The notes below the pieces were generated by a model. The model did not search any database. It was given only the letters and a program-made list of their open reading frames with translations, and was not told the origin of the DNA. From the IMG/VR virus record IMGVR_UViG_2541047758_000011: DNA of 57,499 bases; one strand, given 5' to 3'. The stretch's first letter is position 1, and each line of letters starts with the position of its first letter. This document shows positions 16,996 through 44,659 of the stretch, piece by piece. The DNA is from a virus. Its lineage: Duplodnaviria > Heunggongvirae > Uroviricota > Caudoviricetes. Made by a program: the position numbers and the translations under genes.

Positions 16996-17067
16996 TGAAG
17001 TGGTTTACTGAATTTGGCCACCTGAACAGAGGTGATATGCTCACCTCAGAACAACACAGGTGCCATA

Positions 17068-17370
17068 ATGAAAAAAAGAAATTTCAGCGCAGAGTTTAAA
17101 CGCGAATCCGCTCAACTGGTCGTTGACCAGAATTACACCGTGGCAGATGCAGCCAGCGCTATGGATGTCGGCCTTTCCACAATGACGCGATGGGTGAAAC
17201 AATTACGTGATGAGCGGCAGGGAAAAACACCAAAAGCCTCCCCTATTACCCCGGAACAAATTGAAATCCGTGAGCTCAGGAAAAAGCTACAACGTATTGA
17301 AATGGAAAATGAAATATTAAAAAAGGCTACCGCGCTCTTGATGTCAGACTCCCTGAACAGTTCTCGATAA
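17068..17370 (+). CDS. IS911 transposase OrfA (HTH)
   Basis: [53 protein letters not shown]... Confidence 0.88.
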
Positions 17371-17396
17371 TCGGGAAACTCAGGGCGCGTTATCCT

Positions 17397-18215
17397 GTGG
17401 CCACTCTCTGCCATGTGTTCGGGGTCCATCGCAGCAGCTACAAATACTGGAAAAACCGTCCTGAAAAGCCAGACGGCAGACGGGCTGTATTACGCAGCCA
17501 GGTACTTGAACTGCATGGCATCAGCCACGGCTCTGCCGGAGCAAGAAGCATCGCCACAATGGCAACCCAGAGAGGCTACCAGATGGGGCGCTGGCTTGCT
17601 GGCAGACTCATGAAAGAGCTGGGGCTGGTCAGCTGTCAGCAGCCGACTTACCGGTATAAACGTGGTGGTCATGAACATGTTGCTATCCCTAACTACCTTG
17701 AACGGCAGTTCGCCGTGACCGAGCCAAATCAGGTGTGGTGCGGTGATGTGACCTATATCTGGACGGGTAAGCGCTGGGCGTACCTCGCCGTTGTTCTCGA
17801 CCTGTTCGCAAGAAAACCAGTGGGCTGGGCCATGTCGTTCTCGCCGGACAGCAGGCTTACCATGAAAGCACTGGAAATGGCATGGGAAACCCGTGGTAAG
17901 CCCGTCGGGGTGATGTTCCACAGCGATCAAGGCAGTCATTATACGAGCAGGCAGTTCCGGCAGTTACTGTGGAGATACCGGATCAGGCAGAGTATGAGTC
18001 GGCGTGGAAACTGCTGGGATAACAGCCCAATGGAGCGCTTCTTCAGGAGTCTGAAGAACGAATGGGTGCCGGCGACGGGCTATGTAAGCTTCAGCGATGC
18101 AGCTCACGCAATAACGGACTATATCGTTGGATATTACAGCGCACTAAGACCGCACGAATATAATGGTGGGTTACCACCAAACGAATCGGAAAATCGATAC
18201 TGGAAAAAACTCTAA
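17397..18215 (+). CDS. IS911 transposase OrfB (DDE catalytic domain; normally expressed as OrfAB by -1 frameshift)
   Basis: 272-aa ORF with rve-type integrase core (..[22 protein letters not shown]..); exact start/frameshift site not resolved. Confidence 0.85.
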
Positions 18216-18245
18216 CTCGGTGGCCAGTTTTTGTTGACCACTTCA

Positions 18246-18756
18246 ATTCTATTGCCGGAAGAGGTATTGCATTAAAACCAACGAGCGGGTTGATTATACT
18301 TGCTGCCGCTGTCTGCTTTGCCTCAGGCGCAAGATTTGGCATCAGATCGAACAGATTGGTAACAGCTTCAACCGTCATTTTCAATGTTCGCGCTTGACGA
18401 TACTCAACAAGTCCACTCGCTGATTTACCGCTTTTAATGTGCGCTTCTTGCATACTTTCAAGTTGGTCTACCAGTGAGCGGCGAACGGCTTTTGACTCGC
18501 GAGCGGCAACTCGCAATGCTTGCTTGATTGACATCTCAATGATAACCATCGAAGTTTTGTTCGCTTTTTGCACTACACTTTTTGTGTAGTGCTCTCCATC
18601 CAATTCATCTTCAATTTTCTCGATGAATTTGTTATTACGAACCTCCGGCTCACCGCACTGTCTACGAGCCTGATTTACCATCTCAAGCAGGCGCTGGCTG
18701 TCAATGGTTTTATCCGTGACAACGGATCCGATGTTTGCTACATTCTTAAAAGTCAT
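18246..18756 (-). pseudogene. N-terminal fragment of Rha/antirepressor-like regulatory gene interrupted by IS911
   Basis: ORF MTFKNVANIGSVVTDKTIDSQRLLEMVNQARRQCGEPEVRNNKFIEKI... runs into IS911 right end; family call is tentative. Confidence 0.4.
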
Positions 18757-18843
18757 TAGGCATTCCTTATGTGGTAGTAAGGGTGTGACATAGGCCGCCA
18801 GCAGCACACTGGCGGTTTTCTTTTGCGCTGTCCTGTGCACCAA

Positions 18844-41461: not shown

Positions 41462-41762
41462 CGAAATTCTTCTCTTTAATTCCAGCGGCTCTGATAGCTT
41501 TCATCACTGCAATTACCGTTTTGTCCTTCCCATCCTCATGCCCCATCGCATAAGCACCTTCTTCACCATCTTTCCAAAAGTCGTCATTCGATTCTGGCCA
41601 GTCGATATCCAGTTCAATAGCTGCTCGCGATGCCTGCCATGCCTCCCATGCAATCTCGACCTTGATGTGCATAATCTTCATCACGTCACTTGAAACGTGA
41701 TATTTGTTTTTAAACCATTCTTCAAACTGCTTTCTTGATTCGTCCATATTCCTCTCCATCAC
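41418..41762 (-). CDS. Hypothetical protein (114 aa)
   Basis: ORF upstream of ninB. Confidence 0.45.
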   Translation of the reverse strand: MMERNMDESRKQFEEWFKNKYHVSSDVMKIMHIKVEIAWEAWQASRAAIELDIDWPESNDDFWKDGEEGAYAMGHEDGKDKTVIAVMKAIRAAGIKEKNFDEANIHASQRSNQK

Positions 41763-42025
41763 CGCTTGAACCAGGTGAAATTAGTAAACTGTGACATGCT
41801 TATGCCCATCAGACGCTTAAGCACCCTGTCTCGCGGGCTTCTCTTTGGCTTAGGCCTGCGATTGTATCGCTCTATAATCGGAAGTCTTGAGGCTTTCCAG
41901 TAGCGATAATGCCGTGCGCCTGACTCTTCCAGGTCTGCATTAATCAATTGAGCCAATGTACTCATCATTCCTCTCCAACAGCGTGCTGGGTTGTTAGTTA
42001 AGTGGCGTAAACGTGTAATCTTCAT
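41759..42025 (-). CDS. Hypothetical protein (88 aa)
   Basis: ORF. Confidence 0.4.
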   Translation of the reverse strand: MKITRLRHLTNNPARCWRGMMSTLAQLINADLEESGARHYRYWKASRLPIIERYNRRPKPKRSPRDRVLKRLMGISMSQFTNFTWFKR

Positions 42026-42032
42026 CGTTACC

Positions 42033-42239
42033 TCAACTCACAAAACGCCACGCCATTTTTGCTACAGCGACAGGCGCAACACCGATAATCACCCACATGA
42101 GAATGCTACCGAAAAGCACACCCACCATGTCTTTACCTTCGCCTACCAACCGGACAAAACTGCTGGCAACCACAATGAACGTCGCCACCATCCACATAGC
42201 ACCGAGAATCCTCAATGCAGAAAAAATCAACTCAACCAC
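42033..42239 (-). CDS. Small two-helix membrane protein (68 aa)
   Basis: Two hydrophobic segments (..ILGAMWMVATFIVVASSF.. and ..VLFGSILMWVIIGVAPVAVA..). Confidence 0.4.
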   Translation of the reverse strand: MVELIFSALRILGAMWMVATFIVVASSFVRLVGEGKDMVGVLFGSILMWVIIGVAPVAVAKMAWRFVS

Positions 42240-42315
42240 GATTTACCCTCCCCCAAATAAAAAGGCCTGCGATTACCAGCAGGCCTGTTATTAGCTCAGT
42301 GATGTAGATGGTCAT

Positions 42316-43409
42316 TTAATACTCCGTCACGTTTTCCTGTCGCCACGCCTCGTCATATTCCGATTTCGGCATATTGGCGATGTAGCTATATGGCGATCCT
42401 GATTCAAGTTGCAGGAACTGGTGCGATTGCTCGTCAAGGAACAACGGGACACCACCTTCCCAACCTTCGCCGTTACGTTGTTTTTCAAGCATCAAAACAG
42501 ATGCCGGAGATGCCAGTAGCTGTTCGTCCTTCTCTGACATCTTTTCACCACTCTGAACTCTCTGTAACGCTCTCTCGCGAGCCTTGTTACGCCAGATGAT
42601 GAAAAGGTTGTCTGTCAGGTCTGTTATCGCTCCAGAGCCTTTTACGTCCATTTTCCCGGTTGGTTTTTCTTCGCTGTCTCCTTTTCGCGAGTGAGTAACG
42701 AGAATGACGTGGGAGTTTGTTTTGTTTTTGAAGTCGCAAATCGAGTCAACAAACGCCTTCTGCCCGTTATAGTCATCGTCGCCTATGCCACATTTCATCA
42801 GGCTGTCGATGATGAATAACTGGATCCCGTATCGGCGGCGAGCGTAGTCGAATATTTCGATCAGCCTGTCGGCTTTCGCCGTTCCGGTCAGGCCAAACAC
42901 CCAAAGTCTTTCGTCATAAAATTTAAATGCAGAGTCAATTTCCAGCACTGGCGGAATCTTGCAGCACGTCGCCTGACGGGTAAGGCGCTTAAGGAGAATA
43001 CCAGGCTTCAGCTCAAGTGACGCGATGCACGTCTTCACACCCTGCCGCATTGCCTCAAGTGCCATATGCCCGACAACCTCCGTTTTTCCGTGACCGTTCA
43101 CACCATTGACCAGCGTCAACTCTGCCTCACGGAACTGGAATTTATCTGCCAGAGATTCCCACGGTGGATTAAACAGATACTGCTGCTTGCCGTAGAAAGC
43201 GTTGATAGTGTCCTGGTAAAACTCTCGCGCGCTGTAGAGTTCTTCAGGATCGAAGTAGGATGCCGTGCCGATGTACTGCCAGATTTCATCCTCGGTAACA
43301 CCGTTCATCAGGCATTCGTTGATGTCTTTGTACGGCAGAGTAACAAGACGGCAACGATGTTCACCGAGTCGGCTTGCGATTTCCCTTGCGGCTTCACGAC
43401 CAACATCAT
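42316..43409 (-). pseudogene. C-terminal (DnaB-like helicase) part of primase-helicase gene, separated from its 5' part by IS911
   Basis: ..LVNGVNGHGKTEVVGHMALEAMRQGVKTCIASLE.. Walker A and ..LFIIDSLMKCG.. RecA-fold motifs; the track ORF start at 43308 lies just outside the IS. Confidence 0.7.
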
Positions 43410-44659
43410 TGAAGTGGTCAACAAAAACTGGCCACCGAGTTAGAGTTTTTTCCAGTATCGATTTTCCGATTCGTTTGGTGGTAACCCACCATTATATTCG
43501 TGCGGTCTTAGTGCGCTGTAATATCCAACGATATAGTCCGTTATTGCGTGAGCTGCATCGCTGAAGCTTACATAGCCCGTCGCCGGCACCCATTCGTTCT
43601 TCAGACTCCTGAAGAAGCGCTCCATTGGGCTGTTATCCCAGCAGTTTCCACGCCGACTCATACTCTGCCTGATCCGGTATCTCCACAGTAACTGCCGGAA
43701 CTGCCTGCTCGTATAATGACTGCCTTGATCGCTGTGGAACATCACCCCGACGGGCTTACCACGGGTTTCCCATGCCATTTCCAGTGCTTTCATGGTAAGC
43801 CTGCTGTCCGGCGAGAACGACATGGCCCAGCCCACTGGTTTTCTTGCGAACAGGTCGAGAACAACGGCGAGGTACGCCCAGCGCTTACCCGTCCAGATAT
43901 AGGTCACATCACCGCACCACACCTGATTTGGCTCGGTCACGGCGAACTGCCGTTCAAGGTAGTTAGGGATAGCAACATGTTCATGACCACCACGTTTATA
44001 CCGGTAAGTCGGCTGCTGACAGCTGACCAGCCCCAGCTCTTTCATGAGTCTGCCAGCAAGCCAGCGCCCCATCTGGTAGCCTCTCTGGGTTGCCATTGTG
44101 GCGATGCTTCTTGCTCCGGCAGAGCCGTGGCTGATGCCATGCAGTTCAAGTACCTGGCTGCGTAATACAGCCCGTCTGCCGTCTGGCTTTTCAGGACGGT
44201 TTTTCCAGTATTTGTAGCTGCTGCGATGGACCCCGAACACATGGCAGAGAGTGGCCACAGGATAACGCGCCCTGAGTTTCCCGATTATCGAGAACTGTTC
44301 AGGGAGTCTGACATCAAGAGCGCGGTAGCCTTTTTTAATATTTCATTTTCCATTTCAATACGTTGTAGCTTTTTCCTGAGCTCACGGATTTCAATTTGTT
44401 CCGGGGTAATAGGGGAGGCTTTTGGTGTTTTTCCCTGCCGCTCATCACGTAATTGTTTCACCCATCGCGTCATTGTGGAAAGGCCGACATCCATAGCGCT
44501 GGCTGCATCTGCCACGGTGTAATTCTGGTCAACGACCAGTTGAGCGGATTCGCGTTTAAACTCTGCGCTGAAATTTCTTTTTTTCATTATGGCACCTGTG
44601 TTGTTCTGAGGTGAGCATATCACCTCTGTTCAGGTGGCCAAATTCAGTAAACCACTTCA
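43410..44659 (-). mobile_element. IS911, copy 2 (inverted relative to copy 1), flanked by 3-bp direct repeat CAT
   Basis: 1250 bp; OrfA 44285-44623 and OrfB 43440-44258 translate identically to copy 1; cat at 43407-43409 and 44660-44662. Confidence 0.92.

What the first reader, a model, noticed from the sequence alone, without database searches (positions are those of the whole stretch)
16996..44659. Inverted IS911 pair brackets ~25 kb of prophage B; copy 1 lacks a clean target duplication
Two IS911 copies whose transposase ORFs translate identically sit in opposite orientation at 16996-18245 and 43410-44659. Copy 2 has a perfect CAT/CAT duplication; copy 1 is flanked by ctt and att, and splits what look like fragments of regulatory or antirepressor genes. 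Inverted identical repeats of 1.25 kb are substrates for RecA-mediated inversion of the intervening block (arc/ant, ejection, tail, head, terminase, lysis and nin genes), so the segment may exist in two orientations in a population. The imperfect flanks of copy 1 suggest an adjacent deletion or a one-base change after insertion.
Basis: partly seen in the sequence, partly recalled or inferred. Interest (0 to 1): 0.5.

Follow-up and report, generated by a model that had tools for sequence, protein, structure and literature searches.

The report
Two ordinary IS insertions in prophage
Two identical copies of a common jumping gene (an IS911-like insertion sequence) have each landed separately inside a gene of a P22-like prophage; this is ordinary, nothing has been deleted or flipped, and the odd flank of one copy is a single-base difference.

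Summary
Two 1,250-bp IS3-family elements (16996-18245 +, 43410-44659 -) are 100% identical, inverted, and 25,164 bp apart inside a P22-like prophage at thrW.

Both are simple insertions. With copy 2 and one CAT removed, the flanks match intact primase/helicase genes 800/800 in 287 E. coli genomes. With copy 1 removed, the 758-nt join matches 755 nt of an intact 242-aa anti-repressor-family gene. Four intact relatives read GCTCTTCTATTG at the site. So the target was CTT, it was duplicated, and the copy next to IRR now reads ATT (C>A at 18246). There is no deletion.

The assembly (GCA_000457655.1, draft) is in the ancestral, non-inverted order. Composite transposition, swapped duplications and replicative inversion are all excluded.

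Inversion by homologous recombination is plausible textbook biology, but nothing here shows it. No other genome searched carries either junction.

Strictly, the element is ISEc52-type. It is about 95% nt and 96% aa identical to Shigella IS911, and 98% aa identical to ISEc52-named proteins.

Low interest; already known biology.

The parts
16996..18245 (+). IS copy 1: 1,250-bp IS3-family element of the IS911 group (ISEc52-type). IRL starts at 16996 and IRR ends at 18245. orfA is 17068-17370; OrfAB (382 aa) ends at 18215.
   Evidence: Searches give the sequence and ORFs. One search matches NF033516 (IS3 family transposase) at 380.6 bits against a cut-off of 160. One search finds HTH_Tnp_1, rve and rve_3.
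43410..44659 (-). IS copy 2: the exact reverse complement of copy 1.
   Evidence: exact string equality.
17319..17325 (+). A AAA AAG slippery heptamer for the programmed -1 frameshift that fuses OrfA to OrfB. The mirror site in copy 2 is 44330-44336 (-).
   Evidence: a -1 slip at this site gives a 382-aa OrfAB with no stop.
16993..16995 (.). Target-site duplication of copy 1, IRL side: CTT, the ancestral triplet.
18246..18248 (.). Target-site duplication of copy 1, IRR side: ATT. It differs from the ancestral CTT by C>A at 18246, the base that touches the IS end.
   Evidence: 758-nt join against 755 nt in intact genes; four intact relatives read GCTCTTCTATTG.
43407..43409 (.). Target-site duplication of copy 2: CAT, on the inner (IRR) side.
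44660..44662 (.). Target-site duplication of copy 2: CAT, on the outer (IRL) side.
18246..18756 (-). N-terminal part (about 170 codons) of the 242-aa anti-repressor-family gene split by copy 1. It lies inside the bracketed block.
   Evidence: phrog_1726, E 5e-101, full length. No Pfam family.
16775..16995 (-). C-terminal part (about 72 codons plus stop) of the same gene. It lies outside the bracketed block.
44660..45449 (-). N-terminal (primase/Toprim) part of the 626-aa primase/helicase gene split by copy 2. It lies outside the block.
   Evidence: Toprim_2; phrog_239, E 2e-171.
42316..43409 (-). C-terminal (DnaB-like helicase) part of the same gene. It lies inside the block.
18249..43406 (.). 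The roughly 25-kb block between the IS copies: immI (ant/arc/repressor), ejection, tail, head, terminase, lysis, tRNA-Thr/Asn, antiterminator and nin genes. Nearly all are on the - strand.
12699..12762 (.). Copy of the att core (3' part of thrW) marking the junction between prophage A and prophage B.
   Evidence: D6: 64 nt, 100% identical to 56038-56101.
56038..56131 (-). The other att core copy (56038-56101) and the intact tRNA-Thr(CGT) gene (56056-56131), at the far end of prophage B.

Best explanation
Two separate, conventional insertions of one IS3-family element (IS911 group, ISEc52-type) hit a P22-like (Lederbergvirus-type) prophage at thrW. By published knowledge of IS911, such elements move by copy-out-paste-in through a minicircle.

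Copy 2 entered the primase/helicase gene at CAT. Copy 1 entered a 242-aa anti-repressor-family gene of the ant operon at CTT. Each made a 3-bp target duplication.

In copy 1, the duplicate next to IRR reads ATT instead of CTT. This is one base, with no loss of flanking DNA. It arose either during gap repair at insertion or as a later neutral substitution in a gene that was already dead.

The block between the copies still has the ancestral orientation. The pair is therefore only a potential substrate for homologous-recombination inversion. The prophage has probably already lost its replication function.

Shown: the insertions, the duplications, the empty sites and the orientation. Inferred: the transposition pathway, the origin of the C>A change, the defectiveness of the prophage and its capacity to invert.
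For: - **Identity and anatomy of the IS:**
- **Copy 2:** CAT/CAT flanks. The IS-less sequence aligns 1-800 to exactly 800 nt of intact 'toprim domain-containing protein' genes in 287 of 5,426 genomes. A 626-aa ORF is restored (phrog_239).
- **Copy 1:** the IS-less join of 758 nt aligns end to end with 755 nt in intact genes. The intact sites in MDR_56, KSC207, MB06231 and phage JEP4 all read ...GCTCTTCTATTG.... An ancestral ATT would put TAG in frame, so CTT is the ancestral state.
- **Gene order:** the order around copy 1 (tailspike, arc/mnt, 73-aa ORF, 242-aa gene, ant/Rha, arc, repressor) is the same in MDR_56 and JEP4.
- **Usual behaviour of this IS:** in 27 other full-length copies, 15 have a perfect 3-bp duplication, 1 has a perfect 4-bp one and none has a 2-of-3 match.
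Against: - A random later substitution within the 6 duplicated bases is unlikely if the insertion is recent. The two copies show 0 differences in 1,250 nt. No other genome shares either junction.
- No single-mismatch duplication appeared among the 27 other copies.
- The source is a draft scaffold. The perfect identity of the copies and the base at 18246 both rest on one assembly.
Confidence: 0.88

Rival explanations
1. Copy 1 lost its duplication through an IS-adjacent deletion.
For: Adjacent deletion is one accepted cause of missing duplications (PMC11708052). The flanks CTT and ATT are not identical.
Against: The IS-less join is 3 nt longer, not shorter, than the intact genes (758 against 755). 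Both flanks abut exactly in four intact relatives. The 242-aa ORF is restored in frame.
Confidence: 0.01
2. The block has already been inverted by recombination between the two copies, or the second copy and an inversion arose together by intramolecular replicative transposition, or the 27.7-kb unit moved as a composite transposon.
For: The pair is inverted and identical. Recombination between IS copies is a known cause of missing duplications.
Against: - Each copy's two flanks are contiguous in empty-site relatives. Inversion would pair 16995-side DNA with the reverse complement of 43409-side DNA.
- Swapping the inner flanks gives CTT/ATG and AAT/CAT, which is worse, not better.
- Replicative inversion predicts flanks X/rc(Y) and rc(X)/Y. 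This is not seen.
- The outer flanks CTT and CAT are not a duplication. The genes cut at the outer ends continue inside the block, so the unit did not arrive as a whole.
Confidence: 0.01
3. The A at 18246 comes from copy 2. One route is retention of one nucleotide of the minicircle spacer. Copy 2 is flanked by ATG in IS orientation, so a retained 5' flap base would give IRR-A. The other route is a gene-conversion tract running one base past the IS end. Either way copy 2 would be the donor or template, and copy 1 the younger or converted copy.
For: - The base after IRR is A in both copies.
- The mismatch is at the duplicate position that touches the IS end. That is the last base to be filled on the gapped strand, where the 5' flap sits (inference from the published pathway).
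- Spacer and duplication sizes of 2-4 bp are reported for IS3, IS150 and IS911 (PMC3299598). A 2-bp TT duplication plus one carried base gives the same sequence.
- A random late substitution is unlikely beforehand (see above).
Against: - A chance match has probability about 1/3 or more. A is the commonest base after IRR among other copies, 13 of 27 (my count from the listing).
- No similar case appears among the 27 copies.
- There is no direct evidence on which copy is the donor.
- I found no report of spacer retention for IS911.
Confidence: 0.07
4. The C>A at 18246, and possibly the perfect identity of the two copies, is an error of the short-read draft assembly at a repeat boundary.
For: The source is a draft scaffold, KE699876.1 of GCA_000457655.1. 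The window has no Ns, so the repeats were filled in by the assembler. The erroneous-looking base equals the base at the same position in the other copy.
Against: Reads that cross the junction are anchored in unique flank sequence, so the base should be well supported. The rest of the flank is 99.6% identical to relatives with no other anomaly.
Confidence: 0.08

Closest known systems
IS911 (IS3 family, Shigella dysenteriae) and its relative ISEc52
   Same: Length 1,250 bp, TG...CA ends and imperfect terminal repeats. OrfA is 100 aa, the frameshift site is A AAA AAG, and OrfAB is 382 aa with an HTH and a DDE (rve) domain. It makes 3-bp target duplications.
   Different: It is only 94.8-95.0% nt identical to Shigella flexneri IS911-type copies and 95.5-96.3% aa identical to proteins named IS911 family. 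It is 98.2% aa identical to an ISEc52-named protein. NCBI's pipeline names a 100% identical DNA copy 'ISEc52 family'.
Inversions by homologous recombination between inverted IS, rrn or prophage repeats in enterobacteria (for example E. coli O157:H7 rearrangements, PMC8743559)
   Same: A long perfect inverted repeat on one chromosome, which is the standard substrate.
   Different: No inverted form is documented here. The repeat is 1.25 kb against at least 5 kb in that study. The block is 25 kb and lies within a single, probably defective, prophage.
Programmed invertible segments of phages (Gin/Cin/Hin-type tail-fibre switches, PMC4134206)
   Same: A prophage segment bounded by inverted repeats.
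   Different: Those use a site-specific invertase and 26-bp crossover sites and flip 2-3 kb at high frequency. No invertase gene appears in the gene lists here, and the repeats are whole IS elements.
Escherichia phage JEP4 and other P22-like (Lederbergvirus) phages
   Same: The immI module has the same gene order, and the uninterrupted 242-aa gene is 91% nt identical. Coat, portal, tail accessory, ejection and tailspike head-binding domains are P22-type.
   Different: Prophage B carries the two IS insertions and HNH endonuclease genes, and sits in tandem with a second prophage at thrW.

Membership tests
IS3 family insertion sequence | Transposase made as an OrfAB fusion by -1 frameshifting at an A AAA AAG-type site between two overlapping ORFs | tested here: met
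   orfA is 100 aa, the heptamer is at 17319-17325, and the -1 slip gives 382 aa. Frameshifting itself was not assayed.
IS3 family insertion sequence | DDE (rve) catalytic domain with an N-terminal HTH; score above the curated family model cut-off | tested here: met
   NF033516 at 380.6 bits (cut-off 160); rve 1.6e-31 and HTH_Tnp_1 1.4e-14.
IS3 family insertion sequence | Imperfect terminal inverted repeats ending 5'-TG...CA-3' | tested here: met
   the ends are TGAAGTGG...; 26 of the first 40 positions match between the two ends.
IS3 family insertion sequence | Short (3-4 bp) target-site duplication, confirmed against an empty site | tested here: met
   Copy 2 has CAT/CAT and an 800/800 empty-site match. 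Copy 1 has 3 extra nt against the empty site, with 2 of 3 bases identical.
IS911 in the strict sense (isoform of the Shigella reference) | At least 95% nt identity and/or at least 98% aa identity to the reference element (ISfinder convention, from my own knowledge) | tested here: inconclusive
   Identity is 94.8-95.0% nt to S. flexneri IS911-type copies and 95.5-96.3% aa to IS911-named proteins, against 98.2% to an ISEc52-named protein. PGAP names an identical copy ISEc52. The reference sequence itself was not available. This leans towards ISEc52 rather than IS911.
Composite transposon | One target duplication flanking the whole IS-cargo-IS unit, with cargo foreign to the insertion site | tested here: not met
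   The outer flanks are CTT and CAT. Each IS has its own duplication. Genes cut at the outer ends continue inside the block.
IS-mediated inversion by homologous recombination | Existence of molecules with the block in the opposite orientation (exchanged inner flanks) | not testable with these tools
   Only one genome carries the junctions, and it is in the ancestral orientation. No reads were available.
Programmed site-specific invertible segment | A serine invertase gene and short crossover sites at the borders | tested here: not met
   No resolvase/invertase family appears among the Pfam hits of the genes in or beside the block. The borders are whole IS copies.
P22-like (Lederbergvirus-type) prophage | P22-type coat, portal, gp4, gp7/gp20/gp16 ejection proteins and a tailspike with the P22 head-binding domain | tested here: met
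   (P22_CoatProtein 1e-76, P22_portal 1.7e-169, P22_Tail-4, P22_gp7, Inj_translocase, Phage_P22_gp16, Head_binding 1.2e-66). The immI module is 91% identical to Lederbergvirus JEP4.

The most novel reading that the evidence does not exclude
The single mismatched base of copy 1's target duplication (A at 18246) is a donor footprint: one nucleotide of the IS minicircle spacer, or the end of a gene-conversion tract, copied from the flank of copy 2. This would mark copy 2 as the parent. It would also show that copy-out-paste-in integration of an IS911-group element can leave donor-flank bases in the product.
Probability: 0.07. Interest if true: 0.35.

Novelty: already known. Interest (0 to 1): 0.1.

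Why it matters
It matters little beyond annotation.

- Prophage B is probably replication-defective, because its primase/helicase gene is split. Its ant-operon gene is a pseudogene caused by an IS.
- The IS pair should be flagged as a possible source of assembly ambiguity and of rare inversion isomers.
- The case is a clean worked example of how an empty-site comparison separates 'degenerated duplication' from 'adjacent deletion' and from 'recombination between IS copies'.

Tried and rejected
- **Same junctions elsewhere.** I searched 5,426 complete E. coli genomes with both outer junctions; no place covered 80% or more of either query. I searched a 153-billion-gene index by exact junction proteins; only GCA_000457655.1 was found, and the 89-aa junction ORF is not on record. 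No comparative test for an inverted isomer was therefore possible.
- **Survey of duplications.** I looked for other single-mismatch cases. The genome-contig scan returned mostly Shigella-type IS911 copies at about 95% identity. Only 2 of 20 had a perfect 3-bp duplication. This is uninformative. The viral-contig scan gave 27 full copies: 15 perfect 3-bp, 1 perfect 4-bp, 0 with 2 of 3. This gives a base rate but says nothing about mechanism.
- **Literature.** I searched for reports of spacer or donor-flank retention by IS911. I found only general statements on spacer size.
- **Models rejected on flank logic and empty sites.** Adjacent deletion, an inversion that has already happened, replicative intramolecular inversion, composite transposon and programmed invertase switch.
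- **Rfam.** The scan found nothing in or beside the IS copies.
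Full report
**1. Observation**

A repeat scan of the whole window finds a single long inverted repeat, with arms at 16996-18254 and 43401-44659. Direct string comparison shows that 16996-18245 is the exact reverse complement of 43410-44659 over 1,250 nt. The nine further bases in the tool's arms are flank, and only six of them match. There are 25,164 bp between the copies.

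Copy 2 is flanked by CAT on both sides (43407-43409 and 44660-44662). Copy 1 is flanked by CTT (16993-16995) and ATT (18246-18248).

**2. What the element is**

- Each copy has ends beginning TGAAGTGG and ending CCACTTCA.
- It has a 100-aa orfA and an A AAA AAG heptamer (17319-17325 in copy 1).
- A -1 slip at that heptamer gives a 382-aa OrfAB.
- OrfAB carries HTH_Tnp_1 and rve domains.
- It scores 380.6 bits on NCBI's IS3-family equivalog model, against a cut-off of 160.

This is an IS3-family element of the IS911 group. The name 'IS911' is loose, for three reasons:
- OrfAB is 98.2% identical to a protein named 'ISEc52 family' and 95.5-96.3% identical to proteins named 'IS911 family' from Shigella.
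- A 100% identical DNA copy on an E. coli plasmid is annotated 'IS3-like element ISEc52 family transposase'.
- Full-length copies in Shigella flexneri SFBU1023 are 94.8-95.0% nt identical.

The element is very common. 4,318 plasmid records match it, and 450 of them are at 99% identity or more.

**3. Setting**

The window corresponds to 731493-788991 of scaffold KE699876.1 of NCBI assembly GCA_000457655.1, which is a draft.

A 64-nt sequence that includes the 3' part of tRNA-Thr(CGT) occurs identically at 12699-12762 and 56038-56101. The intact tRNA is at 56056-56131. An integrase gene ends at 12702 and another lies just before 56038. Two prophages therefore sit in tandem at thrW, and prophage B occupies about 12.76-56.1 kb.

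Prophage B is P22-like. It has P22-type coat, portal and gp4, the gp7/gp20/gp16 ejection proteins, a tailspike with the P22 head-binding domain and an Sf6-type small terminase. Its immI module is 91% identical to Lederbergvirus JEP4.

The block between the IS copies contains ant, arc and a CI-like repressor, followed by ejection, tail, head, terminase and lysis genes, two tRNAs, the antiterminator and the nin genes.

**4. Copy 2 is a simple insertion**

Removing the IS and one CAT restores a 626-aa ORF. That ORF has a Toprim domain and a DnaB-like/AAA_25 domain and matches PHROG 239 'DNA primase/helicase' at E 2e-171. The 800-nt IS-less sequence aligns 1-800 to exactly 800 nt of intact 'toprim domain-containing protein' genes in 287 of 5,426 complete E. 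coli genomes, at up to 99.8% identity.

**5. Copy 1 is also a simple insertion, with no deletion**

Joining 16775-16995 to 18246-18756 directly gives one reading frame interrupted by a TAA at the joint. The 758-nt join aligns end to end with intact genes that are 755 nt over the same span. That difference is exactly one 3-bp duplication.

Four intact relatives all read ...GTAATGCTCTTCTATTGCCGG... at the site:
- strains MDR_56 and KSC207, which are 99% identical;
- strain MB06231, which is 91% identical;
- the free phage JEP4.

The window reads GCTCTT[IS]ATTCTATTG. The target was therefore CTT, it was duplicated, and the duplicate touching IRR now reads ATT (C>A at 18246). An ancestral ATT can be excluded because it would place TAG in frame.

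The restored 242-aa protein matches PHROG 1726 'anti-repressor' over its full length (E 5e-101). It has no Pfam family. JEP4's authors call its homologue 'KilA protein'. In relatives it is the gene downstream of ant in the ant operon.

**6. Orientation and other structural models**

The two flanks of each IS are contiguous in empty-site relatives. The assembled molecule is therefore in the ancestral orientation.

- **Past inversion between the copies.** This would pair 16995-side DNA with the reverse complement of 43409-side DNA. It would give flank pairs CTT/ATG and AAT/CAT.
- **Replicative intramolecular transposition.** This predicts X/rc(Y) and rc(X)/Y.
- **Composite transposon.** This predicts one duplication around the whole unit and cargo foreign to the site.

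None of these is observed.

**7. Can the block invert?**

Inversion by homologous recombination between inverted repeats, IS elements included, is established. [quoted passage not shown] Short-read assemblies tend to hide such mixtures (PMC4134206).

Nothing here shows an isomer:
- No complete E. coli genome has either junction.
- The exact junction proteins occur only in this assembly.

Two copies of this IS on one phage-like contig are also not rare. They occurred on 5 of the roughly 80 viral contigs found, and in one pair both copies had perfect duplications.

If the block did invert, the antiterminator and the late operon would be uncoupled from rightward early transcription. With the primase/helicase gene split, however, the prophage is probably already unable to replicate. 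This last point is inference.

**8. The single mismatched base**

Accepted causes of missing duplications are decay, recombination between IS copies and adjacent deletion (PMC11708052). Here only decay by one base fits.

The mismatch is somewhat unusual. Among 27 other full-length copies, 15 have a perfect 3-bp duplication, one has a perfect 4-bp duplication, and none has a 2-of-3 match. The two copies in this window also show no differences in 1,250 nt, which argues for recent insertion. An event at insertion, such as a gap-repair error, is thus as likely as a later substitution.

The A equals the base that follows IRR in copy 2, which is flanked by ATG in IS orientation. It also sits where the non-transferred strand's 5' flap meets the gap. 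This would fit retention of one minicircle-spacer base, or a conversion tract from copy 2. Spacer and duplication sizes of 2-4 bp are reported for this group (PMC3299598).

However, a chance match has odds of about 1 in 3 or better. By my count from the listing, A follows IRR in 13 of 27 copies. I rate this reading at about 7%. An assembly error at a repeat boundary in this draft genome is rated about 8%.

**9. Verdict**

These are two ordinary, independent IS insertions in a prophage. One has a target duplication that differs by one base. There is no deletion and no inversion, and the capacity to invert is only hypothetical. This is already-known biology of low interest.

Noticed in passing
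window 26094-28682 (- strand): Two HNH endonuclease genes flank tail gene 10: a 194-aa one with NUMOD4+HNH_3 at 27957-28541, and a 164-aa one at 26094-26588. A 34-aa ORF at 28578-28682 repeats the first 31 residues of gp10 (26591-28009) at 77% identity (E 3e-15). This looks like the footprint of a homing-endonuclease cassette that brought a foreign 5' end of gene 10.
   Followed up: partly
window 1-12762 and 12762-56101: Two lambdoid/P22-like prophages sit in tandem at thrW, with identical 64-nt att cores. Their early regions share short patches of 80-98% identity, spaced about 43.3 kb apart as direct repeats (D1-D10). These could support recombination between the two prophages.
   Followed up: partly
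window 19829-20470 (+): A 213-aa CI/LexA-like repressor (HTH_3 + Peptidase_S24) lies inside the immI (arc/ant) region, in addition to the C2-like repressor at 47267-47917. Phage JEP4 has a 'repressor protein C2' at the same place.
   Followed up: no
window 7569-7627 (+): The Rfam lambda cIII thermoregulator RNA is present in prophage A at 88.5 bits. No such hit was found in prophage B, although B has a Lambda_CIII ORF.
   Followed up: no
window 38523-38678 (-): tRNA-Thr(TGT) and tRNA-Asn(GTT) genes lie inside prophage B, between the antiterminator and lysis genes.
   Followed up: no
window 13092-13763 (+): A hexapeptide-repeat acyltransferase gene lies between the att core and the tailspike gene. 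It is probably an O-antigen-modifying lysogenic conversion gene.
   Followed up: no
L006-L037 (Shigella flexneri SFBU1023, E. coli ECMA0423): IS911-type copies in these two genomes (about 95% identical to the window IS) mostly lack any 3-bp duplication. Several flank pairs recur in both genomes. This is consistent with extensive rearrangement between IS copies in that lineage.
   Followed up: no
L093 and L115 (IMG/VR contigs): Two 100%-identical IS copies share the same IRR-side flank (ATGCAACAGTTC) but have different IRL-side flanks and no duplication. One of them probably has an IS-adjacent deletion or rearrangement.
   Followed up: no
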